Below are positions 9,758 through 13,924 of a stretch of 64,000 nucleotides of DNA, one piece after another. Origin of the DNA: Escherichia coli 042 (GTDB taxonomy: Bacteria; Pseudomonadota; Gammaproteobacteria; Enterobacterales; Enterobacteriaceae); NCBI RefSeq assembly GCF_000027125.1, contig NC_017626.1; one strand, written 5' to 3'. The notes under the pieces are model-generated. The model saw only the letters and a list, made by a program, of their open reading frames with translations. It made no database searches and was not told the DNA's origin. Made by a program: the position numbers and the translations under genes. Position 1 is the stretch's first letter. Every line of letters starts with the position of its first letter.

Positions 9758-10162
9758 ATGAAAACGGTCATCACCTTCGGCACCTTTGATGTGTTTCACG
9801 TCGGTCATCTGCGCCTTTTACAACGCGCCCGCACGCTGGGCGAACGGTTGCTGGTCGGCGTATCGTCCGATGCCCTGAACATCGCCAAAAAGGGCAGGGC
9901 ACCGGTTTACCATCAGGATGACCGCATGGCGATCATCGCCGGGCTGGCGTGCGTGGAGGGCGTATTTCTGGAGGAATCGCTGGAGCAGAAAGCGGAGTAT
10001 TTGCGGGGGTACGGTGCGGATATTTTGGTGATGGGCGATGACTGGGCGGGGAAGTTTGACGATTTCTCGTGTGTCTGTGAGGTGGTCTATTTTCCCCGTA
10101 CGCCATCGGTATCGACGACGGAGATTATTGAGGTGATTAGGGGTAAATCAGCCACCTACTGA
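9758..10162 (+). CDS. Glycerol-3-phosphate cytidylyltransferase-like (TagD-like) nucleotidyltransferase
   Basis: 134-aa ORF with FGTFDVFHVGHLRLLQRA (HxGH nucleotidyltransferase motif) and overall TagD-like layout (MGDDWAGKFD, VVYFPRT); start 3 bp after lfiJ stop, so probably co-transcribed. Confidence 0.8.
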   Translation: MKTVITFGTFDVFHVGHLRLLQRARTLGERLLVGVSSDALNIAKKGRAPVYHQDDRMAIIAGLACVEGVFLEESLEQKAEYLRGYGADILVMGDDWAGKFDDFSCVCEVVYFPRTPSVSTTEIIEVIRGKSATY

Positions 10163-10215
10163 TTTAATTCCCGCGGTGAGAGAAGATGATGCCGTCTGCC
10201 GTTTGGCTATGTTAA

Positions 10216-10317
10216 ATATGTTTAAAAAATCGCGTTTTTTCGACATATCCCCAAAACATGTCGATGGCATAAACGTATTCCAACGACATGTTTAAAAATC
10301 GCATTTTATCGACATAT
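10216..10317. repeat. Two copies of a ~33-bp AT-rich near-palindrome between convergent genes
   Basis: ATATGTTTAAAAAATCGCGTTTTTTCGACATAT at 10216-10248 and ACATGTTTAAAAATCGCATTTTATCGACATAT at 10286-10317; second copy overlaps the stop codon of the minus-strand glycosyltransferase gene. Confidence 0.7.
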
Positions 10318-12820: not shown

Positions 12821-12936
12821 CTGATGCCCTCACCCCGACCCTCTCCCACAGGGAGAGGGAGAAAACCAGCGCCGATTTTAACACCGTGCTCGATCGGTCC
12901 CCTCGCCCCTTTGGGGAGAGGGTTGGGGTGAGGGGC
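12821..12936. repeat. ~115-bp interspersed element with inverted termini, copy A
   Basis: CTGATGCCCTCACCCCGACCCTCTCCCACAGGGAGAGGG...CCCCTCGCCCCTTTGGGGAGAGGGTTGGGGTGAGGGG; second copy at 20047-20163 with near-identical ends. Confidence 0.75.
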
Positions 12937-12955
12937 AAAGCGCGCACAGAGCGAC

Positions 12956-13924
12956 TCACGTCAGCAGCGAAAACGCTGAAAGCAGCGGGTCGGCGGCACA
13001 TAACGACTGAATTTGCTGGCGAACCAACAGCGCATTTTCACTGGTCCGCCAGCGTTCAAACATGGCAAAGAGGGCGAAAATATCCTCCTGCCGCAGCGGA
13101 GAACCATCCAGCGTCCATAAACTGATTAACGTGCGGAGGAGATAAAAATCGCACACCAGCGGGAAATAATTCGCCCCGTCAGTCTGCCCAATCACATCGT
13201 GGTAAAAGCGGTAAATCAGCCAGTTACGCATCATCCAGGGCGCGGTGGCAAAATGCAGTTGCCAGGTGGTTTGCCACTGCGTCTGAAGCTGCTGTTGTAA
13301 CAGGGCTTCGCTGTTAGCGTCATGCAGCGTCAGCAAAGGCATCTGCAACGGCAGCGAAGTTTTGCGCGGGCTTTCCGGCAGAATCGACCAGTCAAACGCA
13401 CAACTGCCGAGCAGCGTCATCAACTGGCGCGCCAGCTGTGGCACGGGCGGCAGCTGGGCGAACTGTGCCTGTAGCGTGCCTTTTTGTGCATGATCGGCCA
13501 GCGCCTGTGGCAGCGTCGTCAAGCGGGCAAGAATATCTCCGTCTCTGCCCGGCATTTTGCTGGCGCGGGAGAGCAAAATCCCGACGGCGTACAGTGAAAG
13601 CTCCGGGGGTAAATCGGGGAGCGTAAGGGTGCTCAAAATGACCTGGTTTACTATCGCATCGCGCGCGGAGAGTTCTGCGGCATTATCTTCCGCCGGGCGG
13701 TAGGTGAGCTGTAAATCAAAGGCCCTGGCATCGTTGAGCACCGCTTCGCAGCTTTCTGGCTCTGTCAACATCAGGCTCTGGCGAATCTCGTTTTTCCACA
13801 CCTTGCGGATGTACAAAGGCGAATCGGGATATTGCGCCATAAATTTGCGCACGTATTCCGGTTCGTAACATTCAATAAAACTCATAGGTGGCTTCCAGTC
13901 TTTCTTACTTTGCGGAATGTGCAA
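12956..13924 (-). CDS. Hypothetical protein, function unknown, in the flagellar variable region
   Basis: 322-aa ORF co-oriented between lfgN and the glycosyltransferase gene; no recognisable motifs; start may be internal (MSFIECYEPEY). Confidence 0.55.
   Translation of the reverse strand: MHIPQSKKDWKPPMSFIECYEPEYVRKFMAQYPDSPLYIRKVWKNEIRQSLMLTEPESCEAVLNDARAFDLQLTYRPAEDNAAELSARDAIVNQVILSTLTLPDLPPELSLYAVGILLSRASKMPGRDGDILARLTTLPQALADHAQKGTLQAQFAQLPPVPQLARQLMTLLGSCAFDWSILPESPRKTSLPLQMPLLTLHDANSEALLQQQLQTQWQTTWQLHFATAPWMMRNWLIYRFYHDVIGQTDGANYFPLVCDFYLLRTLISLWTLDGSPLRQEDIFALFAMFERWRTSENALLVRQQIQSLCAADPLLSAFSLLT

What the first reader, a model, noticed from the sequence alone, without database searches (positions are those of the whole stretch)
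9758..13924. Teichoic-acid-like glycerol-phosphate glycan genes embedded in the flagellar locus
A TagD-like glycerol-3-phosphate cytidylyltransferase starts 3 bp after lfiJ. Convergent to it is an ~820-aa protein with GT2-like, GT25-like and TagF-like CDP-glycerol glycerophosphotransferase motifs, plus a 322-aa unknown, all co-oriented with lfgAMN. Together these could make CDP-glycerol and build a glycerol-phosphate glycan, presumably for lateral flagellin or another flagellar component. Glycerol-phosphate chemistry is unusual in a Gram-negative flagellar locus.
Basis: partly seen in the sequence, partly recalled or inferred. Interest (0 to 1): 0.65.

Follow-up and report, generated by a model that had tools for sequence, protein, structure and literature searches.

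The report
Lateral-flagellin glycerol-phosphate glycosylation genes
These three genes sit inside the second (lateral, Flag-2) flagellar gene cluster of Escherichia and most likely decorate the lateral flagellin with a sugar capped by glycerol phosphate; the genes and this idea are already published at annotation level, and nobody has yet shown the modification itself.

Summary
Window 9758-13924 is "variable region 1" of the Flag-2 lateral flagellar locus, between lfiJ and lfgN.

- **Cytidylyltransferase (134 aa):** 47% identical to B. subtilis TagD.
- **Transferase (823 aa):** three domains, namely GT2, a GT25-like GT-A domain and a TagF-like domain. The TagF-like domain is from a large subfamily with Tyr where TagF has its catalytic His.
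- **"Unknown" protein:** this is LafV (309 aa). It matches only the C-terminal part of the flagellin methylase FliB and lacks the Fe-S cysteine motif that FliB needs.

Across 55 complete loci from different species, TagD is present only where this TagF-like domain is present (28/3/0/24). Two of the three exceptions have decayed motifs. LafV lies next to the transferase in 63 of 67 loci.

The best-supported mechanism follows the Clostridioides difficile Type A flagellin glycan, which has been reconstituted in vitro. A glycosyltransferase puts a sugar on flagellin, a cytidylyltransferase makes a CDP-alcohol, and a TagF-like enzyme adds the phospho-alcohol.

De Maayer et al. 2020 already listed TagD, "GT2-1" and LafV here and proposed teichoic-acid-like flagellin glycans. 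The region is common, occurring in 1248 of 5426 complete E. coli genomes. In this window lfgC is frameshifted, so the system may be inactive.

The parts
9321..9755 (+). lfiJ (FliJ-like export protein). Last core gene of Flag-2 cluster 1 and left border of variable region 1.
   Evidence: TIGR02473 58.3 bits, above the cutoff of 50.45. Annotated fliJ in E. coli AST215.
9758..10162 (+). tagD-like gene (134 aa), a predicted glycerol-3-phosphate cytidylyltransferase that would make CDP-glycerol. Its start lies 2 nt after the lfiJ stop.
   Evidence: PF01467 3.8e-20. PDB 1coz TagD E=1.5e-32 over the full length, 47% identity. H14-x-G-H17 and R113-T-P-S-V-S-T-T are present. TIGR01518 scores 113.7 bits, below the equivalog cutoff of 165.4.
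10163..10305 (.). Convergent intergenic region between tagD and the transferase gene. It holds a 30-nt direct repeat (10222-10251 and 10291-10320, the second copy overlapping the transferase stop codon) and an 18-nt inverted repeat (10254-10293).
10306..12777 (-). Three-domain transferase, 823 aa. This is 'GT2-1' of De Maayer et al. 2020.
   Evidence: Homologues of 807-857 aa occur in Escherichia, Citrobacter, Enterobacter and others. AlphaFold2 model has mean pLDDT 86.5 and three domains. Supplement of PMC6993521 lists GT2-1 at 828 aa in 222 strains.
12013..12738 (-). Domain 1 (aa 14-255), a GT-A fold of the GT2 family. The DDS (55-57) and DDDD (109-112) motifs are nearly invariant in all 45 homologues.
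   Evidence: PF00535 6.4e-17. PDB AvpGT/PglI-like 9.6e-10 and TarS 1e-6. Conservation list.
11398..11988 (-). Domain 2 (aa 264-460), a second GT-A domain that is GT25-like. It carries INLDKRPDR and LLLEDDAV motifs.
   Evidence: The top Foldseek hits are human COLGALT1/GLT25D1, spanning both GT-A domains (E=1.6e-17). PF01755 hits 2 of 45 homologues (best 5.4e-6). The profile-versus-PDB best hit is the COLGALT1 GT25 domain at E=0.095, with matching motifs. The EDD motif is intact in long forms and degenerate in the ~470-aa short forms.
10333..11370 (-). Domain 3 (aa 470-815), a TagF-like CDP-alcohol phosphotransferase fold of the 'Tyr subfamily'. Motifs: RAMYGLAKE, GNPRFD, LYAPTFG, KLHH, TDNSGFIFD.
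12813..12948 (.). Two Box-C-like G+C-rich palindromic repeat units (35-nt arms, 83% complementary) between lafV and the transferase gene.
   Evidence: They explain the median of 6 megablast places per E. coli genome.
12956..13885 (-). lafV (309 aa), a protein homologous only to the C-terminal part of FliB (Pfam FliB_C). It has no Fe-S cysteine motif.
14013..14441 (-). lfgN (FlgN-like chaperone). Right border of variable region 1. lfgM (14454-14732) and lfgA (14813-15550) lie upstream on the same strand.
   Evidence: Annotated flgN, flgM and flgA in E. coli AST215. ORFs.
27922..28836 (+). lafA, the lateral flagellin (304 aa) and the presumed acceptor. It has no Lys between residues 93 and 233, and the central 104 residues are 33% Ser/Thr.
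   Evidence: NF033376 666.9 bits, above the cutoff of 440. Sequence and counts.

Best explanation
This is the flagellin-modification module of the Flag-2 lateral flagellar system. The proposed mechanism has four steps.

1. TagD condenses CTP with sn-glycerol-3-phosphate to make CDP-glycerol.
2. The soluble 823-aa enzyme glycosylates the lateral flagellin LafA in the cytoplasm before export. The universally conserved GT2 domain puts a first sugar on Ser/Thr of the exposed central segment, and the GT25-like domain probably adds a second sugar.
3. The C-terminal TagF-like domain then transfers glycerol phosphate from CDP-glycerol onto that sugar, releasing CMP. The result is a phosphodiester-linked cap, or possibly a short chain.
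4. LafV acts together with the transferase. Because it lacks the Fe-S motif that FliB needs for methyl transfer, it is more likely a flagellin-recognition or accessory subunit than a lysine methylase.

Shown here: the domain identities, the folds, the gene linkage and the co-occurrence. Inferred: the donor, the acceptor, the order of steps and the role of LafV. In this particular genome the system may be silent, because lfgC is frameshifted.
For: Enzyme identities:
- TagD-like protein.
- GT2, GT25-like and TagF-like domains.

Coupling of TagD to the TagF-like domain:
- In 55 complete fliJ-to-flgN loci from different species, the counts for TagF-like domain and TagD are +/+ 28, +/- 3, -/+ 0 and -/- 24. 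Fisher p=1.2e-12, not corrected for phylogeny.
- The coupling holds whether the domain is fused to the transferase or encoded as a separate gene (10 loci). Paramixta has the four functions as four separate genes: GT core, FliB_C, TagD and TagF-like.
- Homologues that lack the domain, or carry a KpsC/S-like domain instead, have no TagD.
- In two of the three TagD-less loci the signature residues of the domain have decayed. All 28 TagD+ loci keep them.

Flagellin as the target:
- The module lies inside the flagellar cluster in more than 55 species.
- In Burkholderia oklahomensis the same module sits directly upstream of a flagellin gene and motA: GT core, FliB_C, an IspD-type nucleotidyltransferase and a TagF-like gene.
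- In two distant loci, a GT2-TPR protein fused to the same TagF-like subfamily lies next to flagellin genes and a cytidylyltransferase.
- LafV is homologous to a flagellin-modifying enzyme and is adjacent to and co-oriented with the transferase in 63 of 67 loci, in either gene order.
- None of the three proteins has a membrane-spanning-like segment.
- The central region of LafA is Ser/Thr-rich.

Mechanistic precedent:
- In the C. difficile Type A glycan, FgtA adds GlcNAc to FliC. The TagF-like FtaD then transfers a phospho-alcohol from a CDP-activated donor made through FtaB. This has been reconstituted in vitro (PMC10714395; bioRxiv 10.64898/2026.02.12.704994).

LafV is probably not a methylase:
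- FliB needs an N-terminal CX4CX3CC [4Fe-4S] motif (PMC8598068).
- LafV matches only FliB profile positions 106-363 and has no such motif.
- LafA has no Lys in residues 93-233.
Against: - There is no experimental evidence that LafA is modified at all.
- TagD scores below NCBI's equivalog cutoff (113.7 versus 165.4 bits), so another phospho-alcohol substrate is possible.
- The TagF-like domain has Tyr where TagF has its catalytic His444. That equivalence rests on strand order in the model. hhalign gave a different, low-confidence register.
- Relatives of the TagF/TagB fold also include CMP-nonulosonate transferases (PMC5420450).
- Three complete loci have the domain without a nearby TagD. One of them (L026) keeps intact motifs.
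- The co-occurrence statistic ignores shared ancestry.
- GT25 membership of domain 2 is not statistically supported for the query.
- Most LafV relatives outside the Escherichia/Citrobacter clade carry a CxCxxC motif plus a fourth Cys. The ancestral protein may therefore be a metal-dependent enzyme after all.
- lfgC carries a 2-bp insertion in this window.
Confidence: 0.6

Rival explanations
1. The architecture is the same, but the chemistry differs. The cytidylyltransferase would activate a different phospho-alcohol or phosphonate, and the TagF-like domain would transfer that group rather than glycerol phosphate. Alternatively, the domain would use a CMP-activated nonulosonic acid.
For: - TagD scores below the equivalog cutoff.
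- The same Tyr-type TagF-like subfamily is linked to a phosphonate pathway (cytidylyltransferase-PEP mutase fusion, TPP decarboxylase, Fe-ADH) next to flagellin in L074.
- It is linked to an IspD-type nucleotidyltransferase in Burkholderia.
- C. difficile FtaD uses CDP-N-methylthreonine.
- Tannerella TagB-like proteins are needed for the Pse/Leg residue of the O-glycan (deletion mutants lose it), and some subfamily members hit the BFO_1060 family weakly.
Against: - The protein is 47% identical to authentic TagD over its whole length. The next-best solved relative, ethanolamine-phosphate cytidylyltransferase, is 17 orders of magnitude weaker.
- No amino-acid-phosphate, phosphonate or nonulosonate biosynthesis genes lie in the E. 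coli region.
Confidence: 0.15
2. The genes are cargo that happens to be inserted in a variable region. They would act on a cell-envelope polymer (LPS, capsule or a teichoic-acid-like polysaccharide) rather than on the flagellum.
For: - Variable region 1 is a known integration hotspot that also holds non-flagellar cargo (PMC6993521).
- TagD and TagF are classically polysaccharide enzymes.
- TagF-like capsule polymerases exist in Gram-negatives (PMC5974469).
- The G+C content of the region is 3-5 points below that of the neighbouring flagellar genes.
Against: - The GT core and LafV pair stays at this position in more than 55 species. It travels with flagellin or motor genes in Burkholderia and with flagellin in distant taxa.
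- LafV is related to a flagellin-modifying enzyme.
- No transmembrane segment, export gene, flippase or lipid-carrier priming gene is present.
- tagD is nearly contiguous with lfiJ: its start lies 2 nt after the lfiJ stop.
Confidence: 0.08
3. LafV is a genuine flagellin lysine N-methylase that works independently of the glycosyltransferase. This is the published annotation. On this view the region encodes two separate modifications.
For: - LafV is homologous to FliB over about 250 residues.
- NCBI names many orthologues 'lysine-N-methylase'.
- Most relatives outside the Escherichia/Citrobacter clade have CxCxxC plus a fourth Cys that could bind a metal cluster.
Against: - The window's LafV lacks FliB's first ~100 residues, which hold the CX4CX3CC motif shown to be essential. 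It also lacks the shorter CxCxxC motif.
- All scores fall below the curated cutoff.
- LafA has no lysine in its central 140 residues.
- LafV is adjacent to the GT core in 63 of 67 loci, in both gene orders.
Confidence: 0.25
4. In this genome the module is an unexpressed relic. The lateral flagellar system is broken, so the genes currently do nothing, whatever their ancestral role.
For: lfgC has a 2-bp insertion that splits the reading frame, compared with the intact 143-aa gene of E. coli AST215.
Against: The three modification genes are themselves intact and 90-96% identical to those in more than a thousand E. coli genomes. This reading also does not conflict with the proposed biochemical function.
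Confidence: 0.4

Closest known systems
Clostridioides difficile Type A flagellin glycan pathway (FgtA/CD0240 plus FtaA-D/CD0241-0244), and the related P. aeruginosa PAO1 b-type flagellin cluster
   Same: The logic is the same. A glycosyltransferase puts a sugar on flagellin Ser/Thr. A cytidylyltransferase makes a CDP-activated alcohol. A TagF-like enzyme lacking the classical CDP-alcohol phosphotransferase motif then transfers the phospho-alcohol onto the sugar. The genes lie in the flagellar locus.
   Different: The predicted donor here is CDP-glycerol made by a TagD-type enzyme, not CDP-N-methylthreonine. Two GT-A domains and the TagF-like domain are fused in one 823-aa protein. A FliB_C protein (LafV) is an obligate neighbour. 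I could not establish whether FtaD belongs to the same Tyr-type subfamily. The product here is untested.
Wall teichoic acid enzymes TagD and TagF/TagB/TarL of Gram-positive bacteria
   Different: There is no membrane-association region and no lipid-linked acceptor pathway. A conserved Tyr replaces the catalytic His444 of TagF. The predicted acceptor is a protein-bound sugar. Whether it polymerises is unknown.
TagF-like multidomain capsule polymerases of Gram-negative pathogens (Cps3D, Cps7D, Bcs3; Litschko et al., PMC5974469)
   Different: Those enzymes sit in group 2 capsule loci with kps export genes, and they polymerise long chains on a glycolipid. This one sits in a flagellar locus with no export genes.
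FliB, the flagellin lysine N-methylase of Salmonella
   Same: LafV is homologous to roughly residues 100-370 of FliB, the FliB_C domain. It is encoded in a flagellar locus.
   Different: LafV lacks the N-terminal ~100 residues with the CX4CX3CC [4Fe-4S] motif needed for methyl transfer. Scores fall below the family cutoff. It is always paired with a glycosyltransferase.
Human collagen galactosyltransferase COLGALT1/GLT25D1 (GT25)
   Same: It has two tandem GT-A domains, the second GT25-type with an EDD motif. It is the top Foldseek match over about 550 columns, and it glycosylates a protein side chain.
   Different: Sequence identity is only 12-14%, and there is no significant sequence match. 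In COLGALT1 the first GT-A domain is, from my own knowledge, non-catalytic. Here the first (GT2) domain carries the best-conserved DxD motifs.
Published description of flag-2 variable region 1 (De Maayer, Pillay & Coutinho 2020, PMC6993521)
   Same: The genes are the same: TagD (133 aa, 235 strains), GT2-1 (828 aa, 222 strains) and LafV (about 311 aa). The proposal is also the same, that teichoic-acid-type components form part of the flag-2 flagellin glycan.
   Different: That paper annotates GT2-1 only as pfam00535 and LafV as an N-lysine methylase. The GT25-like and TagF-like domains, the TagD-to-domain coupling and LafV's missing Fe-S motif are not described there.

Membership tests
Glycerol-3-phosphate cytidylyltransferase (TagD/TarD; TIGR01518, cd02171) | Full-length similarity to structurally solved TagD enzymes, as the best match among cytidylyltransferases | tested here: met
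   1coz E=1.5e-32 and 2b7l E=1.7e-27, residues 1-129 of 134. The next family, ECT, scores 1.1e-15. Identity is 47%.
Glycerol-3-phosphate cytidylyltransferase (TagD/TarD; TIGR01518, cd02171) | HxGH and RTxGISTT nucleotide-binding motifs | tested here: met
   H14-V-G-H17 and R113-T-P-S-V-S-T-T120 align with the TagD motifs. That these motifs define the family is from my own knowledge.
Glycerol-3-phosphate cytidylyltransferase (TagD/TarD; TIGR01518, cd02171) | Score above NCBIfam's curated equivalog cutoff | tested here: not met
   TIGR01518 scores 113.7 bits against a cutoff of 165.4. RefSeq names the protein only 'adenylyltransferase/cytidyltransferase family' or 'FAD synthase family'.
Glycerol-3-phosphate cytidylyltransferase (TagD/TarD; TIGR01518, cd02171) | Forms CDP-glycerol from CTP and sn-glycerol-3-phosphate | not testable with these tools
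   Needs an enzyme assay.
Glycosyltransferase family 2 (PF00535, GT-A) | Significant Pfam match, GT-A fold and acidic DxD motif | tested here: met
Glycosyltransferase family 25 (PF01755) | Significant match to the family profile | tested here: not met
   The query has no PF01755 hit even at E<=10. Only 2 of 45 homologues hit it (best 5.4e-6). The profile-versus-PDB best hit, COLGALT1, has E=0.095.
Glycosyltransferase family 25 (PF01755) | GT-A fold with GT25 motifs (INLxxRxDR, SH, (L/F)EDD, DWD) | tested here: met
   The top eight Foldseek hits are COLGALT1 or related entries (E about 1e-17). The motifs align.
TagF-like CDP-alcohol phosphotransferases (PF04464 Glyphos_transf) | Match to the family profile | tested here: met
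   The match is marginal for the query: 0.004 for the whole protein and 6.5e-4 for the domain alone. It is clear at family level: 42 of 44 subfamily representatives hit PF04464 at E<=1e-3 (best 1.4e-17). The domain profile hits Cps3D, TarL and TagF.
TagF-like CDP-alcohol phosphotransferases (PF04464 Glyphos_transf) | TagF fold (two Rossmann-like lobes) | tested here: met
TagF-like CDP-alcohol phosphotransferases (PF04464 Glyphos_transf) | Catalytic His of the N-lobe (His444 of S. epidermidis TagF, in the 'WHG' motif) | tested here: not met
   The topologically equivalent position is Tyr (RAMYG). Tyr is conserved in 145 of 158 subfamily sequences, followed by a conserved Lys. Canonical 'IQLWHG' proteins occur separately in 7 related loci. 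The equivalence is inferred from the strand order in the model. hhalign was ambiguous.
TagF-like CDP-alcohol phosphotransferases (PF04464 Glyphos_transf) | C-lobe donor-binding motifs (YAPT..., K/R-x-H, TDYSS..FD) | tested here: met
   LYAPTFG, KLHH and TDNSGFIFD align with the TagF, TarL and Cps3D motifs in the HMMER alignments. They are kept in all 28 TagD+ loci.
FliB flagellin lysine N-methylase (NF038110) | N-terminal CX4CX3CC motif that binds the [4Fe-4S] cluster essential for methyl transfer | tested here: not met
   The motif is defined in PMC8598068. LafV matches only profile positions 106-363 of 373 and has no Cys cluster. Even the CxCxxC motif of other LafV relatives has been deleted.
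FliB flagellin lysine N-methylase (NF038110) | Score above the curated cutoff | tested here: not met
   44.2 bits against a cutoff of 85. Four other LafV-type proteins score 50-67 bits.
FliB flagellin lysine N-methylase (NF038110) | C-terminal FliB domain (PF27117 FliB_C) | tested here: met
   Precomputed PF27117 hits occur on all full-length homologues.
Flagellin glycan with CDP-alcohol-derived phosphodiester cap ('Type A-like' systems) | Glycosyltransferase, cytidylyltransferase and TagF-like transferase encoded together in a flagellar locus | tested here: met
   All three functions lie between lfiJ and lfgN. The co-occurrence counts are 28/3/0/24.
Flagellin glycan with CDP-alcohol-derived phosphodiester cap ('Type A-like' systems) | Flagellin carries an O-linked sugar bearing a phosphodiester-linked group | not testable with these tools
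   Needs mass spectrometry of LafA.

The most novel reading that the evidence does not exclude
LafV is not a methylase. On this reading the FliB_C domain is a reusable flagellin-recognition module. In FliB it delivers flagellin to an Fe-S methyltransferase domain. In LafV it works as a separate subunit that directs a tandem GT-A glycosyltransferase to the lateral flagellin. In addition, the Tyr-type TagF-like clade would be a widespread, uncharacterised family of enzymes that cap protein-bound glycans with phospho-alcohols or phosphonates. The library search found 199 representatives at E<=1e-30, several of them next to flagellin genes in Gram-positives.
Probability: 0.3. Interest if true: 0.55.

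Novelty: new member of a known kind. Interest (0 to 1): 0.38.

Why it matters
If LafA really carries a glycerol-phosphate-capped glycan, it would be, as far as I could find, the first teichoic-acid-type modification shown on a flagellin. It would also extend the C. difficile and Pseudomonas "Type A" logic to enterobacterial lateral flagella.

About a quarter of complete E. coli genomes carry the module, so it could affect the antigenicity, phage recognition and surface charge of a poorly studied motility organelle.

The practical gains from this analysis are modest:
- The published "GT2-1" is a three-domain enzyme, and its hidden TagF-like domain is the missing partner of TagD.
- The routine annotation of LafV as a lysine methylase is doubtful.

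The general idea is already in print, and the locus is common, so this is not a surprise to specialists.

Tried and rejected
- **Whole-protein searches against solved structures.** Searching with the single sequence or the 45-sequence profile found only the GT2 domain. The TagF link appeared only with a domain-specific profile and with fold comparison.
- **hhalign of Tyr-type against canonical His-type TagF-like domains.** The N-lobe register was low-confidence (probability 57%) and misplaces GNPRFD relative to GYPRND. I did not use it, and relied on strand order instead.
- **Placing C. difficile FtaD in the Tyr or His subfamily.** The last word-indexed search, with a Sporosarcina member as query, returned only Bacillaceae and unnamed relatives.
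- **Sigma-28-type promoter pattern.** No match in the window. The generic promoter and terminator scan was uninformative.
- **Ren et al. 2005, the original Flag-2 paper.** It is not held in the library. What I say about E. coli 042 is from memory.
- **A chance ORF or pseudogene explanation for the three genes.** Rejected because of the deep conservation.
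Full report
**1. What is there**

The window carries a Flag-2 (lateral flagella) locus. The stretch 9758-13924 lies between lfiJ (9321-9755, FliJ family) and lfgN, lfgM and lfgA (minus strand, 14013-15550). This position is "variable region 1" of enterobacterial flag-2 loci (PMC6993521). The region holds three genes.

- **A 134-aa gene at 9758-10162 (+).** Its start lies 2 nt after the lfiJ stop.
- **A large gene on the minus strand.** The ORF reaches 12849. Its first 24 codons run into a Box-C-like palindromic repeat, and homologues and RefSeq annotation start at the ATG at 12777, giving 823 aa.
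- **lafV.** Listed as 322 aa from a TTG, but 309 aa from the ATG at 13885 in all annotated homologues.

Megablast finds at least 80% of window 9000-14500 in 1248 of 5426 complete E. coli genomes, with a best identity of 95.7%.

**2. The cytidylyltransferase**

- Pfam PF01467 matches at 3.8e-20.
- Among all solved structures, the best matches are the two glycerol-3-phosphate cytidylyltransferases, over the full length. B. subtilis TagD scores 1.5e-32 and S. aureus TarD scores 1.7e-27. The next family, ethanolamine-phosphate cytidylyltransferase, scores 1e-15.
- Identity to TagD is 47%. The HxGH motif (H14, H17) and the RT...STT motif are in place.
- NCBIfam's TIGR01518 equivalog is the top hit, but at 113.7 bits it falls below its cutoff of 165.4. 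The substrate assignment is therefore probable, not certain.

**3. The 823-aa transferase**

An AlphaFold2 model built on 45 homologues has mean pLDDT 86.5 and shows three domains.

*Domain 1 (aa ~14-255)* is a GT2-family GT-A domain. PF00535 matches at 6e-17, and the solved relatives are AvpGT/PglI-like proteins and TarS. Its DDS and DDDD motifs are at least 90% conserved in every homologue.

*Domain 2 (aa ~264-460)* is a second GT-A domain.
- The query has no PF01755 hit. Two of 45 homologues do (best 5.4e-6).
- The top Foldseek hits for the whole model are human collagen galactosyltransferase COLGALT1 (GT25), aligned over about 550 columns that span both GT-A domains.
- A domain-2 profile finds the COLGALT1 GT25 domain first, at a non-significant E=0.095. 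The hallmark motifs align: INLxxRxDR, SH, L(L/F)EDD and DWD.
- The EDD motif is intact in the long forms, including the window. It is degenerate in the ~470-aa short forms.
- "GT25-like" is therefore supported by fold and motifs, not by sequence statistics.

*Domain 3 (aa ~470-815)* is TagF-like.
- A domain profile hits only TagF-family chains in the PDB: Cps3D 5.3e-12, TarL 4.9e-10 and TagF 1e-6. The YAPT, K-x-H and TD-x-S..FD motifs align.
- An exhaustive search of 1.84 billion representatives gave 10,570 hits at E<=1e-3.
- The best 150 form a distinct subfamily with the motif VR-x-M-Y-G-x-x-K-(E/D)-x-W-N. A Tyr, present in 145 of 158 sequences, sits where the strand order of the model places TagF's catalytic His444 (the "WHG" motif).
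- Of 44 sampled members, 42 hit PF04464.
- The domain is thus a member of the TagF-like superfamily but fails one defining feature of canonical TagF. The strict conservation of the Tyr argues for a functional replacement rather than decay.

**4. LafV**

- NCBIfam gives one hit, FliB flagellin lysine-N-methylase. It scores 44 bits against a cutoff of 85 and matches only profile positions 106-363 of 373.
- Homologues carry only the Pfam FliB_C domain and are 307-315 aa long.
- FliB catalysis depends on a [4Fe-4S] cluster held by an N-terminal CX4CX3CC motif (PMC8598068). LafV has nothing corresponding to that region.
- Many LafV relatives do have a short CxCxxC motif plus a fourth Cys. In the Escherichia/Citrobacter/Leminorella clade a 12-residue deletion has removed it.
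- LafA in this window has no lysine between residues 93 and 233.
- The published label "N-lysine methylase" is therefore doubtful for this protein.

**5. Comparative genomics**

I scanned one genome per species and looked up specific loci. This gave 70 loci with the GT core, which I analysed with local HMMs.

- **(a) LafV and the GT core travel together.** LafV is directly adjacent to and co-oriented with the GT core in 63 of 67 non-redundant loci. The order is GT-then-LafV in 36 and LafV-then-GT in 27. The pair is the invariant unit.
- **(b) TagD follows the TagF-like domain.**
  - In 55 loci that span fliJ to flgN, the counts for Tyr-type TagF-like domain and TagD are +/+ 28, +/- 3, -/+ 0 and -/- 24. 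Fisher p=1.2e-12, not corrected for relatedness.
  - The association holds whether the domain is fused (Escherichia, Citrobacter, Enterobacter) or a separate gene (10 loci).
  - Paramixta encodes GT core, FliB_C, TagD and a TagF-like protein (canonical WHG type) as four consecutive genes.
  - Homologues without the domain, or with a KpsC/S-like domain in its place, lack TagD.
- **(c) Motifs decay where TagD is missing.** Of the three complete loci with the domain but no TagD, two (Leminorella and a "C. freundii M-21" record) have lost the Tyr, the Lys and the YAPT, KLHH and TDNSG motifs. All 28 TagD+ loci keep them.
- **(d) The module recurs outside flag-2.**
  - In Burkholderia oklahomensis the order is GT core, FliB_C, methyltransferase, HAD, IspD-type nucleotidyltransferase, TagF-like (Tyr-type), flagellin and motA.
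  - In two distant loci, a GT2-TPR protein fused to the same Tyr-type domain lies next to flagellin genes. One is followed by a 131-aa TagD-like gene. The other is followed by a phosphonate pathway that includes a cytidylyltransferase-PEP-mutase fusion.

These recurrences support two inferences: flagellin is the target, and the domain uses a cytidine-activated phospho-group.

**6. Mechanism**

The closest experimentally established system is the C. difficile Type A flagellin glycan. FgtA adds GlcNAc to FliC. FtaB is proposed to make CDP-threonine from CTP and phosphothreonine, and the TagF-like FtaD transfers the (methylated) phosphothreonine onto the GlcNAc. The FtaC methylation and FtaD transfer steps have been reconstituted in vitro with synthetic CDP-threonine.

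By analogy, I propose the following.
- TagD makes CDP-glycerol.
- The GT2 domain, and probably the GT25-like domain, glycosylate Ser/Thr in the exposed central segment of LafA, which is 33% Ser/Thr.
- The TagF-like domain adds glycerol phosphate.
- LafV assists the transferase.

All three proteins lack membrane-spanning-like segments. This fits cytoplasmic modification before export.

Domain identities and gene coupling are shown. The donor, the acceptor, the order of steps, cap versus polymer, and LafV's role are inferred.

**7. What is known and what is new**

De Maayer et al. 2020 list TagD (133 aa, 235 strains), GT2-1 (828 aa, 222 strains, pfam00535 only), separate TagB-like proteins (65 strains) and LafV ("predicted N-lysine methylase"). 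They state that teichoic-acid-type glycopolymers probably form part of the flag-2 flagellin glycan.

My analysis adds four things:
- the three-domain anatomy of GT2-1, which explains why TagD (235 strains) far outnumbers recognised TagB (65 strains);
- the quantitative TagD-to-domain coupling, with motif decay where TagD is absent;
- the Tyr-type TagF-like subfamily;
- the argument that LafV is not a FliB-type methylase.

I found no paper reporting an actual modification of LafA.

**8. Caveat for this genome**

lfgC carries a 2-bp insertion (GATGACGGCGCGCAAACG versus GATGACGGCGCAAACG in E. coli AST215). It splits the gene after codon 16. Unless this is a sequencing error, the lateral flagellum, and with it the use of these genes, may be lost in the source strain.

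**9. Verdict**

It also needs correcting on LafV, on the catalytic residue of the TagF-like domain, and on rarity. Interest is moderate to low, and the main open question is experimental.

Noticed in passing
window 15969-16403 (insertion at ~16014-16019): lfgC, the Flag-2 rod gene, is frameshifted by a 2-bp (GC) insertion relative to the intact 143-aa gene of E. coli AST215. The first 16 codons and the rest lie in different frames. From memory, a similar lfgC frameshift was reported for E. coli 042. The lateral system may be inactive in this genome.
   Followed up: partly
window 12813-12948: Two Box-C-like G+C-rich palindromic repeat units (35-nt arms, 83% complementary) lie between lafV and the transferase gene. 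They extend the apparent ORF of the transferase by 24 codons. They also account for the thousands of extra megablast places (median 6 per E. coli genome).
   Followed up: partly
window 10222-10320: There is a 30-nt direct repeat (10222-10251 and 10291-10320, 90% identical, 69 nt apart) with an 18-nt inverted repeat between the copies. The second copy overlaps the last codons and stop of the transferase. The Escherichia proteins lack the C-terminal tail (consensus ...LLxSLxxKLF) present in Citrobacter and Enterobacter homologues. A small duplication or insertion may therefore have truncated the gene end.
   Followed up: no
window ~26000-28000 (ORF 26594-27487, minus strand): There is a marked G+C trough (0.39-0.45, against ~0.57 around it) just upstream of lafA. 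It contains a 297-aa protein with weak CadC/OmpR-type winged-helix similarity. This corresponds to the second variable region of flag-2 loci and looks horizontally acquired.
   Followed up: no
L036, L038, L040, L004, L008 and other loci (LafV homologues, residues ~20-55): Most LafV relatives that are paired with the short (~470-aa) transferase carry an N-terminal CxCxxC motif plus a conserved fourth Cys about 25 residues later. This could be a metal or Fe-S site different from FliB's CX4CX3CC. The Escherichia/Citrobacter/Leminorella clade has lost it through a 12-residue deletion.
   Followed up: partly
L074 1232-18727: This locus has Gram-positive-type flagellar genes (FliW, CsrA, FliS, three flagellin genes). 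A flagellin gene is followed by a 1024-aa GT2-TPR-TagF-like (Tyr-type) fusion, sugar aminotransferase and acetyltransferase genes, and a phosphonate pathway (cytidylyltransferase-PEP mutase fusion, TPP-dependent decarboxylase, Fe-alcohol dehydrogenase). This predicts a phosphonate-capped flagellin glycan.
   Followed up: no
L006 7001-16526 (Plesiomonas sp.): A full-length homologue of the three-domain transferase with intact motifs sits near motA/motB, without LafV or TagD. Instead it lies next to an NTP-transferase, a glutamine amidotransferase-like protein and a 1011-aa PEP-utilising enzyme. This suggests a different activated donor.
   Followed up: no
L018, L029, L039, L043, L056, L068, L008: Seven loci carry an additional stand-alone canonical TagF-like protein (~400 aa, 'IQLWHGVSVK' motif). 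All seven also have TagD. Five of them also carry the Tyr-type domain (L018, L029, L039, L056, L068). L008 and L043 have only the canonical type. Where both types occur this could be a primer-plus-extender pair making a longer glycerol-phosphate chain.
   Followed up: no
L021 (record CACSKA010000002.1): A contig labelled 'Chryseobacterium sp. 18061' carries an Enterobacteriaceae-type flag-2 locus that closely resembles that of 'Citrobacter sp. 18056' from the same study. The assembly is probably mislabelled or contaminated.
   Followed up: no
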